Source: a virus
Taxonomy: Duplodnaviria > Caudoviricetes
Length of the DNA stretch: 34,082 bases
IMG/VR virus record: IMGVR_UViG_3300046705_000076
Location: 1 to 34,082 of that record
Direction: 5' to 3' (one strand)
Program-made: the position numbers and the translations under genes
The notes under the pieces: model-generated
The model's database searches: none
Seen by the model: only the letters and a program-made list of their open reading frames with translations
What the model was told of the DNA's origin: nothing
In this document: in pieces, positions 1,936-25,606 of the stretch
Position numbering within the stretch: the stretch's first letter is position 1
Layout: the number at the start of each line of letters is the position of its first letter

Positions 1936-2430
1936 TCACGGAGTCGATCCCTGCCGGGCGAGGGTGGCGTTCGCGCACGGGCCGCACACCGGGATCTCCA
2001 CGCGCCCCAACGACTCGGACTCGCGCACCAGGGTGCGGGTCGCCTCCCCTGCGCACACCCCGAGGTTGCCGTGCGCGACCTGGCACAGGCAGTTGCACGA
2101 CTGGACCCGCGCCAGCTCCTCGCGCTCACGCTTCCACTCTGCGAGCTGCGCCTGCCCCTCCTCCGTCTGCGACCACTCCAGCACCGGAGCCCACGCCTCC
2201 TTGATGGTCGCCCACCGGGACCGGGCCTGTTCGAGGATCGGTGCGAACCCGGTCTTGATCGCGTCCATGCGCTCGCGGGCGGGCGCCATCACGTCGTCGT
2301 AGTGCGGCGACTCCTTGCCGTGGCGGTGCACGTCGTTGACCGCGTCCAGGGCGGTATGACGGTCCACCTGGTGGCGTTCGGCGTACTCGTTGGCGAGCCA
2401 GATGCGGTGCTGGATGCTCAGGTGCTTCAC
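1936..2430 (-). CDS. Hypothetical protein with C-terminal Cys-rich (putative zinc-binding) domain
   Basis: GTG at 2430 overlaps the HNH stop (GTGA) and has a GGAGG RBS. C-terminal CNCLC..H..C..CGPC. Confidence 0.7.
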   Translation of the reverse strand: MKHLSIQHRIWLANEYAERHQVDRHTALDAVNDVHRHGKESPHYDDVMAPARERMDAIKTGFAPILEQARSRWATIKEAWAPVLEWSQTEEGQAQLAEWKREREELARVQSCNCLCQVAHGNLGVCAGEATRTLVRESESLGRVEIPVCGPCANATLARQGSTP

Positions 2431-2930
2431 GTGCCTGTCCTCCATGCGGGGTTGTAGTTGGGGCGGTATCGGTTGCATGCCTTGCAGTACCGACGACCTT
2501 GGTAGAGGCGCGTATTCGCCTCGTCGTAAGGGTGCCCCTGCGGACAATGAGTCTTCCGTTTGTTGTGGTCTGACCCATGAGCCACACGGTCGTAGTTGTT
2601 CTCAGACCGAGTTCCGTAGGCGAGGTTTTCCAGTCGTGCGTTCAACGGATCGCCGTCGAGGTGTCGAACCTCTGTACCTTCCGGTCGGTCCTCCAGGAAC
2701 GCAGAAGCTACCAGTCGATGCACTTCGTGGGTGGACTGAACGCCGCCCATCACGAGAGTTATCGCCGGATATCCGCGCTTGCTGATCTTCTGCTTAAGAA
2801 CTCCGCCCTTCGTTCGCGGGCGTGGGATGCTGCGTATGCGGCCGAGCGACGATACTTCGTAGCACTGTCCGTAACCGGGGACGCTGCGCCACTCTTCCAC
2901 GCGGCCGTTCAGGGACTCCACGGTCGTCAC
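2427..2930 (-). CDS. NUMOD4-HNH homing endonuclease
   Basis: EEWRSVPGY..YEVSSLGRIRS (NUMOD4); VHRLVASAF..RHLDGDPLNARLENLAYGTRSEN (HNH_3); C-terminal KTHCPQGHPY..CKAC zinc domain. Confidence 0.92.
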   Translation of the reverse strand: MTTVESLNGRVEEWRSVPGYGQCYEVSSLGRIRSIPRPRTKGGVLKQKISKRGYPAITLVMGGVQSTHEVHRLVASAFLEDRPEGTEVRHLDGDPLNARLENLAYGTRSENNYDRVAHGSDHNKRKTHCPQGHPYDEANTRLYQGRRYCKACNRYRPNYNPAWRTGT

Positions 2931-6063: not shown

Positions 6064-6350
6064 GTGGCCACGAACTCCGCGCCCGCACCCTCGTCGCCAA
6101 AGACGACCCGCGAATCCGCCGCGCGCTCTGGGGTATCCCACCCAAGGAGCGGCCCGTGTCCCCTGACGCCGCGTACTGGCAGGCCGCCCTAGTCGTCGCC
6201 CACCGCGACGCCCGCGAAGAGATAGCCCGCAAGCAAAGCCCCGGCTGCTACCGGGCCGGGTACGCGCTTGGGATCCTCCTCGTGCTCTCCACCATCGCAG
6301 GAGCCGTGTGGACGATCGTGTGGCTATGGAGCCTCACCCCCTGGGGTTAG
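6060..6350 (+). CDS. Small membrane protein (C-terminal TM)
   Basis: GTGA overlap with the DUF6221-like gene; hydrophobic C-terminus. Confidence 0.6.
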   Translation: MSGHELRARTLVAKDDPRIRRALWGIPPKERPVSPDAAYWQAALVVAHRDAREEIARKQSPGCYRAGYALGILLVLSTIAGAVWTIVWLWSLTPWG

Positions 6351-7363
6351 CCCCGAACCCGGGGCCGGTGCTGCAACACCCGCGGATCCACACGCCCCAC
6401 CTGCGGAACATCACCCGCGTCCAACCCGGCGAGGAACTCCGCCCACCGCTTCCCGCCAACCCCACGCAACTCCGGCGGGATGATCGTCTCGGCGAACTCC
6501 CGCTCCCGCCTACCGATCCCCTCGCCCGCAGCGCGCCGCACCATGTCGGCCAGCTCGCCGGGAGCATCCGCTTGCAACCCGAGCCGTTGCTGGTACACGT
6601 GTGCCTCCAGCGTCCGTCCGCCGTCACGGGACTCGTTGCGCTCCCGGGTGAGCCACGCAGGCATCACCACGGGGATGCCCAGACACCAGGATTCGTAGAT
6701 CGTGGAGCCGCCGTCAGCGATCACCACGTCAGCGTTCATGTACTGGCCGAAGGTGGCCTTGCGGCCAGGAGCGTGCCGCGGGTGCGGTGCCAACACCACG
6801 TCGAACACCTCCGGATCCAGCAGCGCCTGGACTTCATCGCGTCGCCACCACGACGTCGCACCCGCGCCCGGCGCGTTCGGATTGCCCTCCGGCCAGCGCT
6901 CCGAGCCGCCCCCATGGGTGGGCGCGTACACCACACGGATCCGCTCATCGCGCTCCGGCGCCGCCACCTCACCGTTGAACAGCGGATCCAACTTCGGATA
7001 CCCGGCGATGTGCAGCTTGCGCTCCGGGAACCGGCCCCGGCGCAGCACGTCGTAGAACGCCGGCCCGGGTAGGAGCACATGCCGGTGGAACCGGTAGTGC
7101 TGCCGGTACGACTTGTCCGCCAACCCGTGGGACACCCCGACGGATTCGCGGTCGAACCGCTGCGATCCCCGCACATAGGCGCGCCGGTTGTTCGGGTAGA
7201 CGTTCACCGCACCATGCGCAGGCTGGCGACCCACCGTGTACGCGACACCCATGCTGTCGAGAGCCCGCCATACCGGACGAAGGTATACATCGAGCTGTCC
7301 TCCGACGATCATCCGGTCCGTGGTCTCGTCCCACGAGGTCGAGTTCATGCAGAAGTGGATCAC
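6347..7363 (-). CDS. CDP-glycerol glycerophosphotransferase (TagF/TagB-like, GT-B fold) family protein
   Basis: SHG, AGYPKLDPLF, VVYAPTHGGG, HPRH and ADVVIADGGSTIYE match the Glyphos_transf family motifs. GTG at 7363 lies 2 nt after the upstream stop. Confidence 0.75.
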   Translation of the reverse strand: MIHFCMNSTSWDETTDRMIVGGQLDVYLRPVWRALDSMGVAYTVGRQPAHGAVNVYPNNRRAYVRGSQRFDRESVGVSHGLADKSYRQHYRFHRHVLLPGPAFYDVLRRGRFPERKLHIAGYPKLDPLFNGEVAAPERDERIRVVYAPTHGGGSERWPEGNPNAPGAGATSWWRRDEVQALLDPEVFDVVLAPHPRHAPGRKATFGQYMNADVVIADGGSTIYESWCLGIPVVMPAWLTRERNESRDGGRTLEAHVYQQRLGLQADAPGELADMVRRAAGEGIGRREREFAETIIPPELRGVGGKRWAEFLAGLDAGDVPQVGRVDPRVLQHRPRVRG

Positions 7364-7365
7364 GC

Positions 7366-8037
7366 CTAGTCGCCCTTCCAGTGCGGGATACGAACGAACC
7401 CTCGGTTCCACCGCTGACGCAACGCAGACGCGTTCGCGCCGATGAACCGGTAGGCATGCCGCGACTTGGCACTGGAACGCCCCGGTACCAGCGACGGGGA
7501 ATGCCGATGGTCCACCAGGCTGGGCCACGGATACCACACCGTGATGCCCTGATCCTGGCACCACTGGCCCATCCTCAAGTCATAATTCGCGACCTCAGGA
7601 TGCTCATCCCCCCACGCCACCAGATCGGGGATCAGCTTCACCGGCATCACGACGCCGACACCCCAGTAGATGGACGGCATCGCCAACCACGACGGGCGCC
7701 GAGCCCCTACATGGCGGCGCACCGCCTGCCGGAACCTTTTGACACGCCCGGTGTACAAGCACAGAGGCGTCGGCGTACCGACCGGCGCCGGGACATGGGC
7801 TAGGGCTCGCTCGACACCTGCGACCAGATCGCGGGGCACGACGCTGTCGTCTTGCAGCACCAAGTGGTGGGTGGCCTTCGGATCGTAGGCGAGCAGCGCC
7901 CGCCTACCGGTATCCCACCGGTCGTTGCGCTGATCCCATACCACCTGGGCGGGCCGATCGAGGGCAGCCAGCAGGCTGGGGATGAACGCCTCGCGTTTGC
8001 GGTGGGCCATGATCGCCACCGACACCTTCGGCCTCAC
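7366..8037 (-). CDS. GT-A fold glycosyltransferase, actinophage type
   Basis: VAIMAH..R, HHLVLQDD, LYTG and WYPWPSLVDHRHSPSL resemble mycobacteriophage-encoded glycosyltransferases. GTGA coupling. Confidence 0.8.
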   Translation of the reverse strand: MRPKVSVAIMAHRKREAFIPSLLAALDRPAQVVWDQRNDRWDTGRRALLAYDPKATHHLVLQDDSVVPRDLVAGVERALAHVPAPVGTPTPLCLYTGRVKRFRQAVRRHVGARRPSWLAMPSIYWGVGVVMPVKLIPDLVAWGDEHPEVANYDLRMGQWCQDQGITVWYPWPSLVDHRHSPSLVPGRSSAKSRHAYRFIGANASALRQRWNRGFVRIPHWKGD

Positions 8038-8774
8038 CGCACCCCCTCCGTGCAATCCCACCGCCCCATCTGTGTAGCGCCCCCCGAGCGGAACCGCTTA
8101 GTCCTGGCGTACCCCCATGGTTCGAGTACGGCGGCGATCGCATCATGCTCGGGCTGACCCCACTCCTCCGCGAAAATGACGGGCCGATCACGGCGGATCG
8201 TCCGCTCGCCACCACGCAACACTTCTGGCTCCATGCCTTCGACGTCGATCTTGATGACAGACACGTCGATCAGGTGGTAGTCGTCAAGCGAGCGCACTTT
8301 GATCGGACCAGAGCCGACGTGCAACCGCCCCTTCCCAGCATGCCCAGCGAGGGCGGAATCGGCGCCCAGAGCGACCGGATGCACGGTGACCCGGTCGCCC
8401 AGGTCGTTGCGCGCGACATTGGCGTGCAGTTGCTCCAGGCAGTGCGGAAGGGGCTCGAATGCCTCTACCCTCAGCCCGCACATGACGGCGAACCACACGC
8501 TGTGGTTACCCAGGTTTGCGCCCGCGTCCACGACCGTGCCCGCGAACCCCTGCTCGCGGATATGCTCCAGCAGCGGTTCCTCGTATGGCTTGCCCGCCCG
8601 CATGCAGGCCGCGATCTTGCCAGGCCACACCCACATCGAGTAGGCGCGGCCGTGCCGCTCAAGCGTCAGGATCTCGCCGGTGGAACGGTGCGCCTCGCGT
8701 TCAGCCGCGCGGCGGCGCACACGCTCACGTCGGGCCTTCCGCTCAGCAGGCGACAACAAGCGCCGGTCAACCAC
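8034..8774 (-). CDS. FkbM-family (Methyltransf_21) methyltransferase
   Basis: VVDAGANLGNHS, EAFEP, IKIDVEGMEPEVLRGG..TIRRDRPVIFAE. GGAGGTGG RBS before GTG 8774. Confidence 0.9.
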   Translation of the reverse strand: MVDRRLLSPAERKARRERVRRRAAEREAHRSTGEILTLERHGRAYSMWVWPGKIAACMRAGKPYEEPLLEHIREQGFAGTVVDAGANLGNHSVWFAVMCGLRVEAFEPLPHCLEQLHANVARNDLGDRVTVHPVALGADSALAGHAGKGRLHVGSGPIKVRSLDDYHLIDVSVIKIDVEGMEPEVLRGGERTIRRDRPVIFAEEWGQPEHDAIAAVLEPWGYARTKRFRSGGATQMGRWDCTEGVR

Positions 8775-9699
8775 TGATCTCCACCTCCACCGTGACCTGA
8801 TCACCATCGGCCACACCCAGACGCTCCCGCAGATTCACCGGAGCCCACCCCTCCAGCGTGCCCTGGTGCTGCTTCTTGGCCGTGGGTATCATCACGTGCC
8901 CGGCGACATCCCCGTACCAGGCCCGCCAGGCGTCATAGGCCCTGCGGTTCCGGCCGATCTTGCGCTCCCACCGCACGTGCGGCTCACCCAGGTCGAGCGC
9001 GTCGACCCGCAGGTTCAACGACCCCGGGTACGGCTCGTAGCCGAGCTGGGCCGACAGCCGGTCATCGGCGTACTTGCGCAGGCTCCGGGCGTTGTTGCCC
9101 GACCCGCTGAACACGATCCCTGTGACCGGAGCCGGGTGTCCCTGGATCTGGAGCATCGGCCGTCGCCAGATCCGTCCGTCCTTCGGCGAGGTACGTTCGA
9201 ACACGCCCAGCTCACGCGCAGCAGCCGCGTGGGTCGCGTCGTGGATCGCACGCAGTTCGCGGCGCGCAGCGGCCCGACGCATCCAGTCCTCGTCCGGGTG
9301 GGGCACCTCAGCGATGATCTGGCAGCGGCGCGCCATCAGATCCGCCAGCGCCGACCGCCAGTCGGCCAGGTGATGCAGCACGCTCAACGCCAGCACAACA
9401 TCGACGTGTGGCAGCCTGCGAAGATCCGCGGCGGCCACCCGCCGGTTGATGACCGTGATCCGCGATGAGGAGATCTCCGGCAGCCGCGGGTTATCGTCGA
9501 TGGCGATCACCCGGCAGTCGAAGTCGGAAGCCGCCCGTACAGCGAAGTAGCCCGTGTAGGCGCCCAGGTCGAGCAGTGTGAACGGCTGCTGGATCGTGGC
9601 GAGCACCTCGCGGATTGCCTCGTAGCGGTCGGCGCACTCGCGCTCGCCCGAAGCCACTGTCTGTCCGTTAACCCACCTGGGCTGGTACGACTTGCTCAA
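8767..9699 (-). CDS. Fusion: WbdD-like class I SAM methyltransferase plus CTP-dependent riboflavin kinase-like (DUF120) domain
   Basis: N-terminal YQ..RECADR..LLDLGAYTGYF..DVVLALSVLHH. C-terminal GIVFSGSG..LGYEPYPGSLNL..APVNLRERLGVADGDQV. TTG start in a TTGA overlap with AGGAGG RBS. Confidence 0.8.
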   Translation of the reverse strand: MSKSYQPRWVNGQTVASGERECADRYEAIREVLATIQQPFTLLDLGAYTGYFAVRAASDFDCRVIAIDDNPRLPEISSSRITVINRRVAAADLRRLPHVDVVLALSVLHHLADWRSALADLMARRCQIIAEVPHPDEDWMRRAAARRELRAIHDATHAAAARELGVFERTSPKDGRIWRRPMLQIQGHPAPVTGIVFSGSGNNARSLRKYADDRLSAQLGYEPYPGSLNLRVDALDLGEPHVRWERKIGRNRRAYDAWRAWYGDVAGHVMIPTAKKQHQGTLEGWAPVNLRERLGVADGDQVTVEVEISG

Positions 9700-10394
9700 T
9701 GCTCCTCCTGTTCGGCTCGGGCTGACGCCCGCAGCACCAGATCGCCTAGCTCATGGTCCAGCAGTTCGGACCCCATCAACACGCAGTGGCCTCCGACCGG
9801 ACCGGACATGTGCTCCAGCACGGGGCGGGTGAGGTGCTCCAGCCCGAGATAGGCGTACCCCCGGTTGTAGGTTCGGGCGAACCCGGCGTACACCAGGCCG
9901 AAATCCAGCCCAGCCCTGGAGCAGTACGCGTGGATGGCCTTCTCCACCGCGACCTGCACCCCGTACTGGGTGAGTTCCCACAGCTTTCCGGCTTCGGTGG
10001 TGGCCGCCAGCTCAGTGGCCTGCACCGGGACGCCCAACTCCTTGAACTGCTGGGCCGCCTGGTCGGCGCGGGCCCCTCCGAAGAACTTCACGAACAGGCG
10101 CAGCGACTCGACCAGGTTGGGATGGCGGCCCCGGACCGGTGAGTGCACCCAACCGTTCGGGTCGCACGTGCCCACCGGGACGGTGGAGTGCACGATGACC
10201 AGCCGCGCCCCGTAGGCGCGCTCGTAATCACGGACGTGGTCGACGAATCCGATCCCGCAGGGGAAGCAGATGTGCAGCACATCGGCAGTGTCCGGGCCTG
10301 TGGGTTCGATGTCGCGCAGGTGGGCATCGCCGAGCACCGCGGCGAGGGCTTCGCCGACCTCGCCAGCGCCGATGATGACGTGTTGGTTCATCAT
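9696..10394 (-). CDS. Minimal UDP-glucose/GDP-mannose dehydrogenase family protein
   Basis: Rossmann IIGAGEVG, STVPVGT, EAGKL (catalytic Lys region), GGHC (catalytic Cys). Lacks the C-terminal domain. Confidence 0.82.
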   Translation of the reverse strand: MMNQHVIIGAGEVGEALAAVLGDAHLRDIEPTGPDTADVLHICFPCGIGFVDHVRDYERAYGARLVIVHSTVPVGTCDPNGWVHSPVRGRHPNLVESLRLFVKFFGGARADQAAQQFKELGVPVQATELAATTEAGKLWELTQYGVQVAVEKAIHAYCSRAGLDFGLVYAGFARTYNRGYAYLGLEHLTRPVLEHMSGPVGGHCVLMGSELLDHELGDLVLRASARAEQEEH

Positions 10395-11716
10395 CCCAAC
10401 CCCTTGCCCTGCTTACGGAGCGTGTTGTTCCACTTGTGATGGCAGTATGCGCCGTCCAGGTCGGGAGTCTGCCCGGTGTCGCGCTCGCTGTTGGACTGCG
10501 GGTAGAACACCTTCGCCTCCAGCGGGACCACCCCGGCCGGGTCGCACCGCCAGACACGGGTGATGTGGTGCGGGCCGATCATCTGCGCCAACGGCTTGCC
10601 TGCGTACCGCTTGACCGCATCGGGGAGTGCGTCGATGCACGCCCGGATCCACGGGTGTCCGGGCACCGACCCCAGCACGGCCTGGGTGAGCAGGCGCCGG
10701 TTGGACCGGTCGCGGTGCGGGGAGTAGGCCACCAGCACCTTCCGGTCCAGCAGGGGATCGAACGCCTTGAGGGGTTCGACGTCGGTGTCCACGTACACGC
10801 CGCCGAACTGGTGCAGCAGTTCCAGGCGCAACAGGTCGGCCTGGAACCGCTTCCAGTCCTTCGGGCAGATTTCGCGCGCGGCATCGAACAGGTCCTGGTT
10901 GATCAGCGGCGGCAGGTCGGCGGTGGACCGCCACTCGCGGATCTCCCAGTCGGGGTGCAACTCGCGCCACCGCTGCCCGTACTGCTCGAACTCGGCGGGC
11001 ATCGGGTCGTCCAACCAGATCCGGTGCAGGATCCGCGGAACCCCGGAAGTCTCGTCTTCCGTGTCTGCCTGCTGGGCCACGACCGGGATTGGCTCACCGG
11101 TCGTGTTCACCACCGTCTGCGGACCAGGGGGGAGGACGTAGGTGCTCTTCTGTGCGACCAGCAGTCCGCGCGTCCGGCGCACCTGGCCCTTGTACACCCA
11201 CGGGATGATCTGATCATCCCAGTCGGACCCCAGTACCTGCCGCACCGTGTCGGCCACACCAGGGTCCGCGGCCTCGTGCACCACTACGACCGCCCCGTCG
11301 GCCAGATGCGGCAACCACGCGGACAGGTCGGAGGTGACATCACCGTGGCCGCTGTGCCGCAACAACCCCACCGGTGGCCCGCTCCATGAGGCGGCGGCCT
11401 TGGCCGGGGTGGTGTAGGCGATGGTGTGCTCAGCGGAGGTGGCCCCGACCCTGGCCATGTACGCGCCGAGCCGCTGCCGGTCATCGTCGGATTCGACCCG
11501 CGCGACCGTGGTGACGTGCGCCCTGTAGCCTTCACCAGCACCGAGCAGCAGCCACCCGGTGGCCCTGCCGGTGCAGGTGCCCAGATCCACGACCGCCTGA
11601 TCGGCGGGCACTTGGGCGGCCAAGGCACGCAGGCGTCGGCACGCCGACAACTCCACCCGGCCCGAGTGGCGGTAAGACTTGCGCCACTCGGTGACGACAG
11701 CAGCATCGATGGTCAT
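10391..11716 (-). CDS. Fusion: degenerate Methyltransf_24-like domain plus DXD glycosyltransferase (GT32/OCH1-like)
   Basis: N-terminal VVDLGTCTGRAT..DLSAWLPHLADGAVVVVHE. C-terminal PRILHRIW, ADLLRLELLHQFGGVYVDTDVEPLK, IGP, HHKW. Confidence 0.85.
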   Translation of the reverse strand: MTIDAAVVTEWRKSYRHSGRVELSACRRLRALAAQVPADQAVVDLGTCTGRATGWLLLGAGEGYRAHVTTVARVESDDDRQRLGAYMARVGATSAEHTIAYTTPAKAAASWSGPPVGLLRHSGHGDVTSDLSAWLPHLADGAVVVVHEAADPGVADTVRQVLGSDWDDQIIPWVYKGQVRRTRGLLVAQKSTYVLPPGPQTVVNTTGEPIPVVAQQADTEDETSGVPRILHRIWLDDPMPAEFEQYGQRWRELHPDWEIREWRSTADLPPLINQDLFDAAREICPKDWKRFQADLLRLELLHQFGGVYVDTDVEPLKAFDPLLDRKVLVAYSPHRDRSNRRLLTQAVLGSVPGHPWIRACIDALPDAVKRYAGKPLAQMIGPHHITRVWRCDPAGVVPLEAKVFYPQSNSERDTGQTPDLDGAYCHHKWNNTLRKQGKGLG

Positions 11717-12539: not shown

Positions 12540-15500
12540 TCACAGTCCCGGGGTGGCCGGGCGGGTCAGGGCGATCTCGGTTCCCGCCTCGTGCGGTTTG
12601 ACGATGCCGTTGATGGACCGCTGGACCTGCATCCGCTGGGGTGTGGTCATGGCCTCCATCCGGTACCGCAACTCCGGGTTCACGTTGGTGTTGGTAGCGA
12701 ACGCGGAGGCGGTGAACCCGACCTGACCAGAGTCGATCGTGTCCGCGGTGACGGTGCGGTCGATCATCCAGTGGGCGGGCTCCAGCAGGGCAGCCCCGGT
12801 GATGTCGGCGGATGCGCGCCCGACTGGCCATGCCCGCATCAGCACCCGGTGGCCGATCAGCCGCACCCGCACCATCAGCCGGTCGGCCAAGTCGGCGGAC
12901 GCCGAGTACGCGATGTTCGGGAACGGGGTCTCTGTGGCCCCGATCTGGGTGACTCCCCGGGTGACGCTCAGGCTGATGGTGCTGTCGGTGTTCAAGTGGA
13001 CTCGGGCTCGGTAGAAATCAGCGGCATCCGACCGGCGCAACAGCAGGCTGGGCAGCAGCGAAGCCCCGGTGGCGACCTGGTCGGTACGGATCGACCACAA
13101 GATCTCGCAATCGGCCACGTCTCCGAAGTCCAGCCGCTGCTCGCGGATCGTCCCCGGGCTGGCGTTCAACTGCACGAACCCGTACTGGTCGGCCTCCGAG
13201 GTGCCGATGGTGGTGTCAGCCGCAGTGGTGTCGATCCAGTCCACACCCGAGTCCGAGGTCCCCCATGTGTCCGTCTCGTCCGGGCGGCGGAACAGGTCCC
13301 ACGCCCCGTCCTCGGCTCCGACCACCCGCACGGTCTCACCGGCCATTTTGACGTCGAACGGGAACTGGTGCGCGTGCGTGATCCCCGGCCCCGAACTGTT
13401 GATCCAGCGCGCGATCGGACCCGTGTCCAGGTCGGTGTCGACCCGCAGCGTGGTGTCACTGTCGGTGACGGTTCGGGCCAGATGGGAGCCCCGGGTGCTG
13501 GCACGGTTGGGCCGGTCGGTACCCGGATCGAACCCGTCAGTGAAGATGACTTCATCGATCCACAGCAGCTCAGTGTCCGGGATGGGGGCGGTGTCGCGCT
13601 GGTTGATGCTGACCTGCATGCGGAACGCACCCTCGGGCGCCACCACCGACCCCACCAGCTGGGTCCACACCCCGGCGGGCACGAACGTCGCAGGCACCGC
13701 GAACGGGAACGAGATCTGGTTGTTGGCCTGGTCGCGCCACAGGACCGACACGTCCACGTTGTGGCCGTTGGCTGTGCGCACCCAACACCGCACGGTGTAC
13801 TGGACTCCAGCGAACACCCGGGGCGAATCAGTTGTGGTGGTCAAGGTGCGCGCCAGGTCATCGACACCGGTCGGGGTCTGCCGGGCCGACCCCTGGCCAC
13901 GGAATGACACCTCCAGGTCATGGTCCAGAGTCGATTGGAACGCGAACCAGCCCTGGGTTCCCGTCTCGAAGTCGTGGTTGTGCAACAGCGACACGGGCGG
14001 AACAGCCTGGGCGACCTCCCACGCGCTGGCCGGGGAGGCGTTGTACTCCACCCGCCAATCGTGCGTGGTGATGGACTCCTTATAGCCCTCGACCACCGCC
14101 GCGATGGGTTCGGGCGGCAGCCACGCGGGCGGGTTGTCGATGGTGATGGCGTCCCCGCCGTCCAACGCGGCCACGTCGCGGCGCAGATCCTGCATGCGCG
14201 GGTTGGTCAGGATCTGGCTGATGTTGGGGTAGCGGGCCTCATCCACGGTGCCCTGATGGAGCAGCCACCCCGCCTGGTCGCCCAGCTCATCATCGGCGCG
14301 GACGTTGACCGTGGTCGAGTCGGTGTACCGGCCCACCGTGTCCACGCCCAGCGGACCGTCGTCGTCCTGCACACGGGTGTCGCCGCCGTCACGGCGCTGG
14401 GCGGTGATGTCGTTGGCCAACAGTTGGTCGTCGTCGGTGGGCTCCAGCGGCTCGAACGTCTGGCCTTGGGCGTAGTCCAGCGCGACAACGTGCGGTTCCA
14501 CGTGCGCGTACCCGGTGTAGGTACGCCACACCTGGTCGTTGACGTACCCGGTGCCGTGCAGGGCGATCGTGTGCCCGCTGTCCTCAACCCGCAGCGTGCC
14601 ATACCGCTGCCGCCCCGGGGACTGGCCGCGGTCGTACTGCAACTCCGGGCTAGCCGAGAACGACGAGTCCATCGACGCGAACATGAACACCGGGAAGTGA
14701 CCCCACGGGTTGGCCGGGCCGGAACTGATCGACAACGCGTGCTTGTCAGCGTTGAGCATGATCATGCGCTGAAGCCACCCGTGATCACCCAGCATCTGCA
14801 TGAGCTCTTCACGCTCAGTACGGAACCGGCCCCACGCGTCCGCCGAGTCATCACCCCCCGCCTGATCCGAAAGCCAGATCGATGGAGAGATCAGCACTAG
14901 CGCCTCGGACATCGAGTTGCGCAGGACCTGCTCCATCCACCTTTTCTGCTCCGAGCCGAGCATGGTCTTGGTGCGGTCAGTGTCCAAGTCGTCGTTGGGG
15001 TCCCGGTCCCACCTGGAATCCAGGGCGATGAACTGCACCCGACCGATCTGCCACGCCTGGAAGATCGGGGCGTTGGTCGCGCTCAGCCCCTCGGCAGGCA
15101 GCGGGTAGTGCGGCACCGACTCCCGGTACACCTGGGAAGCAGCCGGACGGCTCACGGACGTGCTATCGGAATTGTTGTCCGAAAAGTCGTGATCGTCCCA
15201 CACATACGCCATGTTGACGTTGCGGAAGAAACTTCCCTGGCGGGCATTGACGCCGAGCCCGTTGAACGTCAGATTGTCGTCGTAAGCGTCCCGGTACAAC
15301 TGCGGGTCATTGGTGGTGATGTTCCGGTAATGCATATCGCCAAGGTGGGCCACGAGCAGCCAATCCTCGGCTAATGCTCGCTCGCGCATGGTGTCGAACA
15401 CGGGATTGTTGGACACTTGGTCGGTGATGAACGAATCATCGCCAGCACCCACTAGTCCTGCGTCCCCAGCGGCGCCGATAATGAAGCTCTGCGGGGTGCC

Positions 15501-15788
15501 GTCCTGGGGTGGGGCGGTCAGGAACTGCCCTTGTCCGATGGTGAGCTGGGGGGTGCCGTCGATTACCCACTGGTAGAAGTACCGGGTGGACGGGTCCAGC
15601 CCGGCCACTTCGATGCTGGCCATATCAACGCCGTCGACGGCTACCGGCCCGAACGTCACCGGGTTGGTGATGTCTGGGTCGGTGTCGACCCGAAGCTCAG
15701 CCTCGACGTCGCCCGGTTCCACCCTGGCGCGCACCCACACCTCGAACGGTGTCACCGCCCCGTGCAACGTCCAAATGACAGCCATCAC
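12540..15788 (-). CDS. Minor tail protein with N-terminal PhoD-like metallophosphodiesterase and internal CBM4/9-like domain
   Basis: HLGDMHY, WDDHDFSDNN, LDSRWDRDP, MLGSEQKRW and ADKH (PhoD); EPTDDDQ..ND..GWLLHQGTVDEARYP tail domain; NHDFETGTQGW..WIDEV carbohydrate-binding module; QRSINGIVKPHEAG end. Confidence 0.85.
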   Translation of the reverse strand: MMAVIWTLHGAVTPFEVWVRARVEPGDVEAELRVDTDPDITNPVTFGPVAVDGVDMASIEVAGLDPSTRYFYQWVIDGTPQLTIGQGQFLTAPPQDGTPQSFIIGAAGDAGLVGAGDDSFITDQVSNNPVFDTMRERALAEDWLLVAHLGDMHYRNITTNDPQLYRDAYDDNLTFNGLGVNARQGSFFRNVNMAYVWDDHDFSDNNSDSTSVSRPAASQVYRESVPHYPLPAEGLSATNAPIFQAWQIGRVQFIALDSRWDRDPNDDLDTDRTKTMLGSEQKRWMEQVLRNSMSEALVLISPSIWLSDQAGGDDSADAWGRFRTEREELMQMLGDHGWLQRMIMLNADKHALSISSGPANPWGHFPVFMFASMDSSFSASPELQYDRGQSPGRQRYGTLRVEDSGHTIALHGTGYVNDQVWRTYTGYAHVEPHVVALDYAQGQTFEPLEPTDDDQLLANDITAQRRDGGDTRVQDDDGPLGVDTVGRYTDSTTVNVRADDELGDQAGWLLHQGTVDEARYPNISQILTNPRMQDLRRDVAALDGGDAITIDNPPAWLPPEPIAAVVEGYKESITTHDWRVEYNASPASAWEVAQAVPPVSLLHNHDFETGTQGWFAFQSTLDHDLEVSFRGQGSARQTPTGVDDLARTLTTTTDSPRVFAGVQYTVRCWVRTANGHNVDVSVLWRDQANNQISFPFAVPATFVPAGVWTQLVGSVVAPEGAFRMQVSINQRDTAPIPDTELLWIDEVIFTDGFDPGTDRPNRASTRGSHLARTVTDSDTTLRVDTDLDTGPIARWINSSGPGITHAHQFPFDVKMAGETVRVVGAEDGAWDLFRRPDETDTWGTSDSGVDWIDTTAADTTIGTSEADQYGFVQLNASPGTIREQRLDFGDVADCEILWSIRTDQVATGASLLPSLLLRRSDAADFYRARVHLNTDSTISLSVTRGVTQIGATETPFPNIAYSASADLADRLMVRVRLIGHRVLMRAWPVGRASADITGAALLEPAHWMIDRTVTADTIDSGQVGFTASAFATNTNVNPELRYRMEAMTTPQRMQVQRSINGIVKPHEAGTEIALTRPATPGL

Positions 15789-24187: not shown

Positions 24188-24751
24188 TCAGAAGAGGAAC
24201 CCGGCTTCTTGTGGGTCTTTGGCAAGCAATTCGTGATGCTCTCGCCACACCTCGAAGATCTGCCGGTCGACCTCGAACGCTTCGGGCGCCATCACGCCCT
24301 TCTTGCGGTTGCATGTCTGACAGCACCACTTGGTGTTGGTTCGGTAGTAGGGCGGCTTGTTCCGATCAACGACGTCGAGGGTGATGTCGCCCAGCCCGTG
24401 GCCCATCTCGCTGTACTGGTGACCGCAGTAGTTGCAGCCGTTGCCGTACTGGAATTCGGCGTCATGGGCGAGGCGTTCGGGCTCCCAGCCGTAGCGCTGG
24501 ATCAGATGGTCTTTGGCGATCTCAAAGCGCACGGCATGGCGGCGGATCACGTCGCGGGCTTTGACCGCCCACCGGTTGCTGATCTTCTTGGAGTCCCGCG
24601 CGGTCTGCTCGCAGGGGCGGCAGGTATACCGAGTGCGCCGCGAGACTTGGTGGCGAGATGCATCCTGCCACCGGCCCGTCCGGAACGCGCCCTCGACGAG
24701 GTGCGACGGGTACGTGGTGCCGCACCGGTTACAGCGGCGGCCATCAAGCAT
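24188..24751 (-). CDS. HNH-like zinc-binding protein, atypical catalytic motif
   Basis: CNRC..CRPC N-terminus; CNYCG..ITLDVVD..N..CCQTCNRKKG. Confidence 0.65.
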   Translation of the reverse strand: MLDGRRCNRCGTTYPSHLVEGAFRTGRWQDASRHQVSRRTRYTCRPCEQTARDSKKISNRWAVKARDVIRRHAVRFEIAKDHLIQRYGWEPERLAHDAEFQYGNGCNYCGHQYSEMGHGLGDITLDVVDRNKPPYYRTNTKWCCQTCNRKKGVMAPEAFEVDRQIFEVWREHHELLAKDPQEAGFLF

Positions 24752-25175
24752 CTTCACCGCCACCCTCGTTGTGAGCCTGCTTGTAGGCGTCGATGACTTC
24801 CTGAGGCAGACGGCCACGGGCGGACACCTCGATGCCGGACTCGCGAGCCCAGGCGCGCACCACGGCCAGGGACGGCTCAGGTTCTGCCTGCACCGGACCT
24901 GTAGGTTCGGCGGGTTCATCGTGGCCCTGCGCCGCCTCAGTCACCGCAGGCACCTGCTCGCGCTGCACCGGCTGCTGCACCTGAGCGGGAGCCGGGCTCC
25001 ACTGTTCCGCAGCCTGATCGTTGCTCACCCACTTGGAGCACTCGTCCATCGCCTCCAGCAGCTTCTCCTGGCGGCGCCGGGCACGCTTGGGCTGGGAGGA
25101 CCGGGCAGCGGCCTCACCCGGAGTGGGCACCTTTGCGACGCGACCAGTGCGGGTATTGCGGTAGATGAGCGGCAT
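24744..25175 (-). CDS. Protein with C-terminal Lsr2 DNA-binding domain
   Basis: VRAWARESGIEVSARGRLPQEVIDAYKQAH matches the Lsr2 AT-hook domain. The N-terminus is not the Lsr2 dimerisation domain. AGGAG RBS before ATG 25175. Confidence 0.85.
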   Translation of the reverse strand: MPLIYRNTRTGRVAKVPTPGEAAARSSQPKRARRRQEKLLEAMDECSKWVSNDQAAEQWSPAPAQVQQPVQREQVPAVTEAAQGHDEPAEPTGPVQAEPEPSLAVVRAWARESGIEVSARGRLPQEVIDAYKQAHNEGGGEDA

Positions 25176-25177
25176 GA

Positions 25178-25606
25178 TCAATCTCCTGTATTTCCGCGGA
25201 AGGGGAACAAGTCGGCTTCGAGGAGAAGCCGCTCAGGCATGTCGCCTTCCAGCGTTATGGTGTCGATGAGAGTGCGGTCGACAGCGGCCAGAATCAGCCG
25301 CTCCTCTTCCGCTGTGGTGTAGATGGCCTGCCCTGCGGGGGCGGTGTAGGCGTAGTCAGCAATCCGCTCCGAGGACAGTCCGCGCGGGTTCTCGATGCCG
25401 CGGGTGACCATGGAGAACAGGACCGGGCGCAGCTCTGCGGGAAGATCCGCGCTGGTGTGATCCAAGTCGTCCAAGTCCGGGGCGGCGATACGGCGCACGA
25501 TCGCGGAGGCGTCGTCCAGATACGCCTCCACCTGCGCCTTCTTGACCCCGGTGAAGGATCGCCCCGCGCGGGCCTCGTATTGCTCTAGCGAAAGCAGGGA
25601 TGTCAT
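25178..25606 (-). CDS. Head-tail adaptor (connector) protein
   Basis: AYLDDASAIVR..V.RGIENPRGLSSERIADYAY..YTTAEE, actinophage adaptor pattern. Confidence 0.85.
   Translation of the reverse strand: MTSLLSLEQYEARAGRSFTGVKKAQVEAYLDDASAIVRRIAAPDLDDLDHTSADLPAELRPVLFSMVTRGIENPRGLSSERIADYAYTAPAGQAIYTTAEEERLILAAVDRTLIDTITLEGDMPERLLLEADLFPFRGNTGD

What the first reader, a model, noticed from the sequence alone, without database searches (positions are those of the whole stretch)
8767..9699. WbdD-like methyltransferase fused to a CTP-dependent riboflavin-kinase fold: possible new methyl-phosphate glycan capping enzyme
Seen: the N-domain YQ..RECADR..I..PFTLLDLG..GYF..DVVLALSVLHH resembles, as I recall it, the methyltransferase of E. 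coli O9a WbdD (YQ..RDCNQR..PLNVLDLG..GFF..DLAIGLSVFHH). The C-domain carries archaeal RibK/DUF120 motifs (G.V.SG.G, PYPGSLN, LR..L...DGD.V). Known: WbdD ends O9a chains by phosphorylating then methylating the terminal sugar, using an ATP-dependent kinase of a different fold, while RibK phosphorylates a ribityl hydroxyl using CTP. Inference: the same MTase-plus-kinase logic with a non-homologous kinase, acting on a sugar or polyol rather than flavin.
Basis: partly seen in the sequence, partly recalled or inferred. Interest (0 to 1): 0.87.

Follow-up and report, generated by a model that had tools for sequence, protein, structure and literature searches.

The report
Phage sugar-capping enzyme with borrowed kinase
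A phage gene joins a methyltransferase related to the bacterial sugar-chain capper WbdD to a kinase fold so far characterised only as the archaeal riboflavin kinase, and the pair likely adds a phosphate and then a methyl group to sugars that probably coat the virus particle.

Summary
Confirmed. 8767-9699 (-) is one intact 310-aa gene in a six-gene glycan cluster behind the tail genes of a high-GC siphophage. The N-domain's best structural match is WbdD (Z 18.4, next 15.1). It keeps all four residues WbdD needs to methylate phosphate (Y5, H109, H110, R180). The C-domain has the archaeal CTP-dependent riboflavin-kinase fold (Z 11.2). It keeps the nucleotide/Mg residues and the base Glu, but two of six flavin-contact residues are lost and one is uncertain. 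Of 74 viral loci with this methyltransferase, 28 fuse it to the RibK fold, 23 to a WbdD-like kinase domain, 15 pair it with a 'Ser/Thr kinase' (cluster J/F mycobacteriophages), and 8 have no kinase. A GT32 gene accompanies 28 of 31 RibK loci and 0 of 47 others. Best reading: a phosphate-then-methyl modification of virion glycan by a swapped-in kinase. Acceptor, CTP use and virion location are inferred, not tested. There is no coiled-coil ruler, so it is not a WbdD-type length regulator. Nine literature searches found no description; this scan noted the fusion in six earlier reports on other DNA.

The parts
8767..9699 (-). Fusion gene, 310 aa: WbdD-type methyltransferase plus RibK-fold kinase domain
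   Evidence: (AlphaFold model, pLDDT 93.4, pTM 0.86)
9139..9699 (-). Methyltransferase domain, residues 1-187; Y5/H109/H110/R180 = WbdD Y16/H132/H133/R203; R20/C22/R25 = R31/C33/R36
   Evidence: (WbdD 4ax8 Z 18.4, rmsd 2.7, 180 aligned)
8770..9138 (-). RibK-fold (cradle-loop barrel) domain, residues 188-310; G199, G201, S227-L228-N229, E283, L290-R291 kept
   Evidence: 2vbu TM by target 0.75, rmsd 2.8; Mj0056 Z 11.2, rmsd 3.0, 123 aligned
9704..9709 (-). Ribosome-binding site AGGAGG before the TTG start; the start overlaps the upstream stop
10391..11716 (-). Methyltransf_24 domain fused to a GT32 (PF04488, DXD) glycosyltransferase; first gene of the glycan cluster
9696..10394 (-). Nucleotide-sugar dehydrogenase-like protein (weak match, below cut-off)
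   Evidence: E 0.07; TIGR03026 E 1.4e-4
8034..8816 (-). FkbM-family methyltransferase; the real start is probably the GTG overlapping the fusion gene's stop
7366..8061 (-). Glycosyltransferase of phrog_854, homologous to mycobacteriophage Che8 gp110 (29% over 137 aa, pairwise E 2e-14)
6347..7564 (-). TagF-like CDP-glycerol glycerophosphotransferase-like protein (PF04464 by language-model features, score 0.96, and predicted structure, TM 0.72-0.79; no Pfam hit by sequence)

Best explanation
The protein is a two-domain phage enzyme, a WbdD-type methyltransferase fused to a riboflavin-kinase-fold domain, that likely phosphorylates a hydroxyl of a phage-built glycan and then methylates that phosphate, probably on sugars attached to virion proteins. 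Proposed steps: (1) the Che8 gp110-like and GT32 glycosyltransferases build a glycan on capsid or tail proteins (homology shown, activity inferred); (2) the RibK-fold domain binds a nucleoside triphosphate, most likely CTP, with Mg, and E283 deprotonates a sugar or polyol hydroxyl for phosphoryl transfer (residues shown, chemistry inferred from RibK); (3) the methyltransferase holds the new phosphate with H109/H110/R180 and methylates it from SAM (residues shown, chemistry inferred from WbdD). The product would be a methyl-phosphodiester that ends or decorates the glycan. The RibK-fold domain likely fills the role that WbdD-like or 'Ser/Thr' kinases fill in sister phages, and its tight link to GT32 suggests that it recognises the GT32 product.
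For: METHYLTRANSFERASE: WbdD ranks first of 48,161 chains (Z 18.4, next 15.1) and first among methyltransferases by profile. The four residues whose mutation abolished WbdD methylation (PMC3482155 section 6) are kept in 67 family members: H109, H110 and R180 in 67 of 67; Y5 in 62 of 67, the other 5 being gaps. KINASE: against 22 RbkR-like archaeal proteins, 96 fused domains keep G199 96, G201 92, N229 95, E283 96, R291 95. They differ at flavin contacts named in PMC5397151: the Y109 column is Y/F in 22 of 22 RbkR but mostly K/H/N/S in fusions, and the F165 column is F/Y in 22 of 22 but aromatic in 6 of 97. They share their own conserved residues (R205, Y255, W258, H268, R275). KINASE SWAP: of 74 viral loci, 28 RibK fusions, 23 C-terminal kinase-like fusions, 15 adjacent or fused 'Ser/Thr kinase' genes, 8 none. 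A profile of 15 kinase-like fusions aligns to WbdD in both domains, including its catalytic loop. No PF01982 in 5 of 5 records of the other-kinase types. CONTEXT: GT32 in 28 of 31 RibK loci and 0 of 47 others; Che8 gp110 family in 19 of 31, one of them possibly profile carry-over. The cluster often sits directly behind the major capsid gene. RibK-fold domains are also fused to GT2, GT32 or gp110-like glycosyltransferases (P0219, P0220, P0214, L097, L077, L102). Che8 gp110 is described as essential for capsid glycosylation (PMC12363180, passage). PRECEDENT: Klebsiella O7 makes the same cap with a different kinase (PMC11231755).
Against: No activity was measured. The flavin pocket is only partly changed: P185, Y190 (His in 59 of 96 fusions; Q277/H278 here) and E195 columns are kept, and the Y115 column is H/Y/F in 61 of 96, with Y210 adjacent here. 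The third glycine of the phosphate loop is lost (0 of 96, against 22 of 22), so nucleotide binding may differ. L024 has both the RibK fusion and a 'Ser/Thr kinase' gene. Eight of 74 loci have the methyltransferase with no kinase; the five inspected in full sit between a PAPS-reductase-like gene and a ParB-like gene. Four Bacillaceae loci show no kinase hit either. So the WbdD-type site does not prove a phospho-glycan acceptor. WbdD's second pocket (N34, Q35, H197) is A23/D24/T172 here. H132/H133 also occur in NodS or RebM. The loci include near-copies and were found with RibK-biased patterns, so the counts are not independent events. An AU test did not reject one origin of the RibK-partnered methyltransferases (p 0.052). 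The kinase-like profile was built from 15 of the loci it labels, and its WbdD kinase match is weak (domain E 0.037). Che8, the proven glycosylated phage, has three glycosyltransferases and no annotated kinase or methyltransferase in that region.
Confidence: 0.58

Rival explanations
1. Same two reactions, but on a polyol or free precursor: the RibK-fold domain phosphorylates the terminal hydroxyl of a ribitol- or glycerol-phosphate unit (as RibK does on the ribityl chain), or a soluble sugar that is transferred afterwards.
For: RibK's natural acceptor is a ribityl primary hydroxyl, and P185/Y190/E195-column residues are kept. This window encodes a TagF-like polyol-phosphate transferase.
Against: The TagF-like gene was found in 1 of 31 RibK loci, by homology and by motif, whereas GT32 is in 28 of 31. 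WbdD did not methylate monosaccharide phosphates.
Confidence: 0.14
2. The cluster modifies a host envelope glycan (receptor masking or superinfection exclusion) rather than the virion.
For: WbdD and the O7 enzyme act on cell-surface polysaccharides. One carrier is a Streptomyces aidingensis prophage. The TagF-like and FkbM genes resemble envelope enzymes.
Against: The genes are co-oriented with the late structural genes and often directly follow the major capsid gene. The gp110-family glycosyltransferase is described as essential for capsid glycosylation in Che8 (second-hand).
Confidence: 0.1
3. The two domains are not coupled on one glycan: the RibK-fold domain is a non-catalytic nucleotide- or sugar-binding module or acts on another acceptor (protein, nucleic acid), and the methyltransferase takes a phosphate made elsewhere.
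For: L024 has a second kinase; 8 loci have none; the RibK domain also occurs without this methyltransferase (L099, L097, P0219); the third loop glycine is lost.
Against: E283, N229 and R291 are kept in 95-96 of 96 fused domains. The window has no other kinase hit, though it is only 57% complete. Where RibK lacks the methyltransferase it still sits with glycosyltransferases.
Confidence: 0.1
4. The C-domain is a true riboflavin kinase (auxiliary metabolic gene) that merely travels with a glycan methyltransferase.
For: Only riboflavin kinases match the fold at Z above 8; PF01982 is over its cut-off; three of six flavin-contact columns are kept.
Against: NCBIfam RibK equivalog scores are far under cut-off (33.6 vs 168; 30.8 vs 279). 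Y109 and F165 aromatics are lost; the PxxT-type motif is in 7 of 96 against 14 of 22. No flavin-pathway gene appeared among the 73 and 60 proteins scanned that came from these phage loci. The S. aidingensis host has its own RibF-type flavokinase.
Confidence: 0.08

Closest known systems
E. coli O9a / K. pneumoniae O3 WbdD (PDB 4AX8, 4AZS, 4AZW, 4UW0; PMC3482155)
   Same: Homologous N-terminal methyltransferase with the same phosphate-site residues; methyltransferase followed by a kinase domain; glycosyltransferase context.
   Different: The kinase is a RibK cradle-loop barrel, not protein-kinase-like. 310 aa, no coiled-coil ruler or membrane region, no ABC transporter seen. Second (sulphate) pocket altered. 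Phage late-gene context.
Archaeal CTP-dependent riboflavin kinase RibK (MJ0056) / RbkR kinase domain, PF01982 (PMC5397151; bioRxiv 2021.04.15.440061)
   Same: Same fold (Z 11.2); glycine loop start, G[ST]LN, catalytic Glu and LR motifs kept; part of the acceptor loop kept.
   Different: Lacks the third loop Gly and the Y109 and F165 aromatics; shorter by a median 7 residues between N and E (55 vs 62). Fused domains fall on one side of a branch apart from all 22 RbkR rows (FastTree support 91). Fused to methyl- and glycosyltransferases in phages.
K. pneumoniae O7 ORF6 methyltransferase-kinase terminator (PMC11231755)
   Same: Shows that a methyl-phosphate cap can be made by a different kinase paired with a methyltransferase.
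   Different: Its kinase is AmiN-like and uses ATP; it has a coiled coil and polymerase modules.
Mycobacteriophage virion glycosylation genes (Che8 gp108-110, Corndog gp38; Freeman et al. 2023, seen only through PMC12363180 and PMC11256854)
   Same: The window's 7366-8061 gene is a gp110 homolog. Cluster J phages and DeadP (F1) carry the same methyltransferase next to glycosyltransferases.
   Different: No phosphate or methyl-phosphate on phage glycans was found in the papers I could see; those phages use a protein-kinase-like gene; Che8 has neither gene in that region.

Membership tests
WbdD (O9a/O3 terminator) | Class I methyltransferase domain of the WbdD subfamily | tested here: met
   rank 1, Z 18.4, rmsd 2.7, 180 aligned; E 1e-12
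WbdD (O9a/O3 terminator) | Essential residues Y16, H132, H133, R203 | tested here: met
   Y5, H109, H110, R180
WbdD (O9a/O3 terminator) | Sulphate pocket R31, C33, N34, Q35, R36, H197 | tested here: inconclusive
   R20, C22, R25 kept; N34/Q35/H197 are A23/D24/T172
WbdD (O9a/O3 terminator) | Protein-kinase-like ATP-dependent kinase domain | tested here: not met
   Residues 188-310 are a RibK barrel and end the protein
WbdD (O9a/O3 terminator) | Coiled-coil ruler and membrane/polymerase-binding C-terminus | tested here: not met
   The protein ends at residue 310; the model has no long helix
WbdD (O9a/O3 terminator) | Methylates phosphate on a terminal sugar | not testable with these tools
   needs assay
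Archaeal CTP-dependent riboflavin kinase (PF01982, RibK/RbkR) | Cradle-loop barrel fold and PF01982 over cut-off | tested here: met
Archaeal CTP-dependent riboflavin kinase (PF01982, RibK/RbkR) | CTP/Mg residues G102, G104, G106, T131, L132, N133, L202, R203 and base E195 | tested here: inconclusive
   7 of 9 identical, T131 is Ser, G106 is Asn (Gly in 0 of 96 fusions)
Archaeal CTP-dependent riboflavin kinase (PF01982, RibK/RbkR) | Six FMN-contact residues Y109, Y115, F165, P185, Y190, E195 | tested here: not met
   Y109 is S206 and F165 is R252; Y115 uncertain (A211 or Y210); P272, H277/278 region and E283 kept (numbering carried over through P0190, sequence alignment only)
Archaeal CTP-dependent riboflavin kinase (PF01982, RibK/RbkR) | NCBIfam equivalog cut-offs (NF040694, NF010762) | tested here: not met
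   33.6 vs 168 and 30.8 vs 279 bits
Archaeal CTP-dependent riboflavin kinase (PF01982, RibK/RbkR) | Riboflavin + CTP gives FMN + CDP | not testable with these tools
   needs assay
Phage virion-glycosylation gene cluster (Che8 type) | Che8 gp110-family glycosyltransferase | tested here: met
Phage virion-glycosylation gene cluster (Che8 type) | Glycan on capsid or tail proteins | not testable with these tools
   needs virions

The most novel reading that the evidence does not exclude
[quoted passage not shown] Methyl-phosphate-modified virion glycans are then a widespread phage trait made by one methyltransferase family with three interchangeable kinases, among them the genes annotated 'serine/threonine kinase' in cluster J and some cluster F mycobacteriophages.
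Probability: 0.42. Interest if true: 0.86.

Novelty: new variant of a known kind. Interest (0 to 1): 0.7.

Why it matters
If right, it gives the archaeal riboflavin-kinase fold its first non-flavin substrate and possibly a CTP-dependent sugar kinase. It warns that 'riboflavin kinase' calls in phage genomes may be false auxiliary-metabolism annotations. It also predicts a specific chemical group, methyl-phosphate, on phage virion glycans, which are reported to alter antibody recognition (second-hand through PMC12363180 and PMC11256854). The prediction can be tested now in cultured M. smegmatis phages (Thibault, LittleE, DeadP) for the methyltransferase, and with the Streptomyces aidingensis prophage protein (P0013, 51% identical) for the RibK-fold kinase.

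Tried and rejected
Single-sequence PDB search did not find WbdD; the profile and structure searches did. Whole-model Foldseek ranked WbdD only 19th by E-value, although 4ax8 had the highest query TM-score (0.44) among the listed rows. No cultured phage in the GenBank collection has the full fusion: 45 hits, none covering 80%; the 40 listed cover only the methyltransferase. Two divergent RibK-domain queries found nothing there. A 2010 cyanophage paper lists 'DUF120' in 5 genomes (PMC3037559, one table line); PF01982 was absent from 5 of 5 cyanophage genomes I tested, of the 16 in that paper, so this mention is unresolved. A plasmid search with a bacterial relative gave one weak archaeal RibK hit. 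The metagenome scan with the bacterial clade gave 30 loci; I inspected only the three best (L115-L117), two of which are reverse-order RibK-methyltransferase fusions whose methyltransferase lacks the HH pair. The maximum-likelihood RibK tree did not finish; FastTree on 162 of 212 domains was used. The number of kinase swaps is unresolved (AU p 0.052 on 50 of 70 rows, near-copies dropped). My first mapping of the Y190 column was one column off and was corrected. Freeman et al. 2023 is not held. Literature searches found no description of the fusion; subscription papers and bioRxiv supplements are outside the library. No complex was predicted, and no ligand docking was possible.

Full report
Setting. 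The window is a linear virus record of 34,082 bases, estimated 57% complete, about 67% G+C. It carries a minus-strand siphophage operon: terminase, portal, tape measure, a PhoD-containing tail protein and an amidase, with a tail tube gene. Closest named relatives of its genes are actinobacterial (Streptomyces aidingensis prophage, Actinoplanes phiAsp2), so an actinobacterial host is inferred. Between the tail genes and the lysis region lie six overlapping or abutting genes: Methyltransf_24+GT32, a nucleotide-sugar-dehydrogenase-like gene, the finding, an FkbM methyltransferase, a Che8 gp110-like glycosyltransferase and a TagF-like gene.

Observation. The gene is intact, has a ribosome-binding site and normal codon-position GC in both halves. 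Pfam finds a class I methyltransferase and PF01982 over its cut-off. Of 82 homologs returned, 71 have both domains. The AlphaFold model from 67 sequences is confident (pLDDT 93.4).

Methyltransferase domain. WbdD is the top structural match among 48,161 chains (Z 18.4, rmsd 2.7, 180 residues; next Z 15.1) and the top methyltransferase by profile (E 1e-12, next 3e-6). In WbdD, mutation of Y16, H132, H133 or R203 abolished methylation of the phosphate (PMC3482155, section 6 read). The alignment places these on Y5, H109, H110 and R180, which are kept in 62 (5 gaps), 67, 67 and 67 of 67 sequences. R31, C33 and R36 are kept too; N34, Q35 and H197 are not. This supports a phosphate-methylating site with a different acceptor from O9a mannan.

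Kinase domain. Folded alone (pLDDT 90.6), it matches Mj0056 (Z 11.2) and T. acidophilum RbkR (Z 9.2); nothing else passes Z 5.6. I took the CTP- and FMN-contact residues from PMC5397151 (passages) and compared 96 methyltransferase-fused domains with 22 RbkR-like proteins, chosen by length and domain position from the 150 best hits. Nucleotide, metal and base residues are kept (G199, G201, N229, E283, R291 in 92-96 of 96), the third loop glycine is not (0 of 96). Of six FMN contacts, Y109 and F165 are lost, Y115 is uncertain, and P185, Y190 (as His) and E195 are kept. The fused domains have conserved residues of their own (R205 57, Y255 80, W258 85, H268 85, R275 70 of 96). In a FastTree of 162 domains the 47 fused rows and the 22 RbkR rows lie on opposite sides of one branch (support 91; few columns). 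So the domain probably still transfers phosphate, to a remodelled acceptor; riboflavin is disfavoured but not excluded.

Kinase exchange. A scan of IMG/VR gave 74 loci with this methyltransferase. With profiles built here: 28 RibK fusions, 23 fusions to a C-terminal domain with a protein-kinase-like catalytic loop, 15 with an upstream or N-terminally fused 'Ser/Thr kinase', 8 with no kinase. The alignment shows the loop, and a profile of 15 such proteins aligns to WbdD in both domains (kinase-domain E 0.037, weak on its own; one member has a weak APH hit). In GenBank, cluster J mycobacteriophages and DeadP have kinase, methyltransferase and glycosyltransferase genes in a row. One locus (L024, same contig as L105) has both a RibK fusion and the 'Ser/Thr kinase'. 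On methyltransferase trees the partners form patches; at least one exchange is needed, but an AU test did not reject one origin of the RibK group (p 0.052).

Context. GT32 lies in 28 of 31 RibK loci (the 28 above, L101, L102 and the window) and in 0 of 47 loci of the other types; the Che8 gp110 family lies in 19 of 31. These are not independent events and many loci are short. Pfam scans of selected neighbours (73 proteins near RibK loci, 99 near the others) show capsid or portal genes next to many RibK loci, and other glycosyltransferases (GT4, GT11, GT8, GT9) or GDP-mannose dehydratases next to most kinase-like fusions; a few of those (L047, L068, L072) showed no glycan gene among the ORFs scanned. 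RibK-fold domains also join glycosyltransferases directly: P0219 (gp110-like), P0220, P0214, L097 (GT2), L077, P0171 (methyltransferase and GT2), L102 (GT32). Against a glycan-only reading, the kinase-less clade sits between PAPS-reductase-like and ParB-like genes with all WbdD site residues kept ('ParB-like' is my recall, Pfam gave no hit).

Mechanism. Shown: domain identities, conserved residues, partner exchange, gene context. Inferred: phosphorylation of a glycan hydroxyl, CTP as donor, methylation of that phosphate, and the virion as carrier. I put this at 0.58; a polyol or precursor acceptor at 0.14; a host-envelope target at 0.10; uncoupled domains at 0.10; FMN synthesis at 0.08.

Known and new. 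It works like WbdD but is not a member (no protein-kinase-like domain, no ruler). It has RibK's fold but fails the flavin-contact and equivalog tests. A kinase change in methyl-phosphate capping has a precedent in Klebsiella O7 (PMC11231755, passages and part 1 of 2 of section 11), with an ATP-using AmiN-like kinase. One preprint mentions a WbdD-like gene in an Asgard virus (one passage). Nine searches (listings seen) found no account of the fusion. Also seen as passages only: bioRxiv 2021.04.15.440061, PMC12363180, PMC11256854, PMC3037559. Freeman et al. 2023, whose text and supplements may report phosphate or methyl groups on phage glycans, was not available. This scan's own index holds six earlier reports on other DNA with the same reading; they are repeats, not evidence, and I consulted them after forming mine.

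Verdict. A real, conserved fusion; a new variant of a known kind; interest 0.70.

Noticed in passing
L032:6709-9115, L045, L048, L065, L069 (also L046, L051, L073): A kinase-less clade of the same WbdD-type methyltransferase, with all phosphate-site residues kept, sits between a PAPS-reductase/DUF3440 gene and a ParB-like gene (IbrA/IbrB-like, recalled) in AT-rich phages; it may methylate a phosphate or thiophosphate on a non-glycan acceptor such as DNA.
   Followed up: partly
L001:7516-8537, L002:5508-7224, L003:4486-5531: Genes annotated 'serine/threonine kinase' in cluster J mycobacteriophages and DeadP sit directly before this methyltransferase and glycosyltransferases; they are more likely glycan kinases. 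L054/L056 fuse the two.
   Followed up: partly
L035, L037, L041, L052, L059, L062 and others (about 310 aa): Compact WbdD-like proteins (methyltransferase plus short kinase-like domain, no coiled coil) in 23 viral loci, mostly beside glycosyltransferases.
   Followed up: partly
L115:189-1526, L116:381-1547; P0161 (Halorhodospira halophila), P0092, P0199, P0220: A separate, probably bacterial clade of RibK-fold proteins with a C-terminal extension; two are fused in reverse order to a different methyltransferase, one to a GT2.
   Followed up: partly
L100:5974-7291; L099:5376-7103; L077:7818-10121: RibK - methyltransferase - RibK trio in a sugar cluster; a stand-alone RibK between GT32 and a gp110-like gene behind a capsid-like gene, with no methyltransferase in the 7.7-kb locus; a protein with two RibK domains.
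   Followed up: partly
window 12540-15788 (-): 1082-aa tail-region protein with a PhoD phosphatase domain and a CBM_4_9 module (phrog_24476), possibly for degrading host wall phosphodiesters.
   Followed up: no
window 24744-25181 (-): Lsr2 DNA-binding domain protein among the head genes; in L007 and L009 the same domain is fused to the gp110-like glycosyltransferase.
   Followed up: no
window 6347-7564 (-): TagF-like protein; similar proteins form virus-dominated clusters in the ESM Atlas, so polyol-phosphate transfer may be another phage glycan chemistry.
   Followed up: partly
window 2427-2930 and 24188-24919 (-): A NUMOD4-HNH endonuclease gene, and a weak HNH-like gene inserted among head-tail genes.
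   Followed up: no
L106-L109: Bacillaceae chromosomes carry the methyltransferase in sugar-modification clusters (NeuB, cytidylyltransferase, aminotransferase, pyruvyltransferase) with no kinase hit in the locus.
   Followed up: partly
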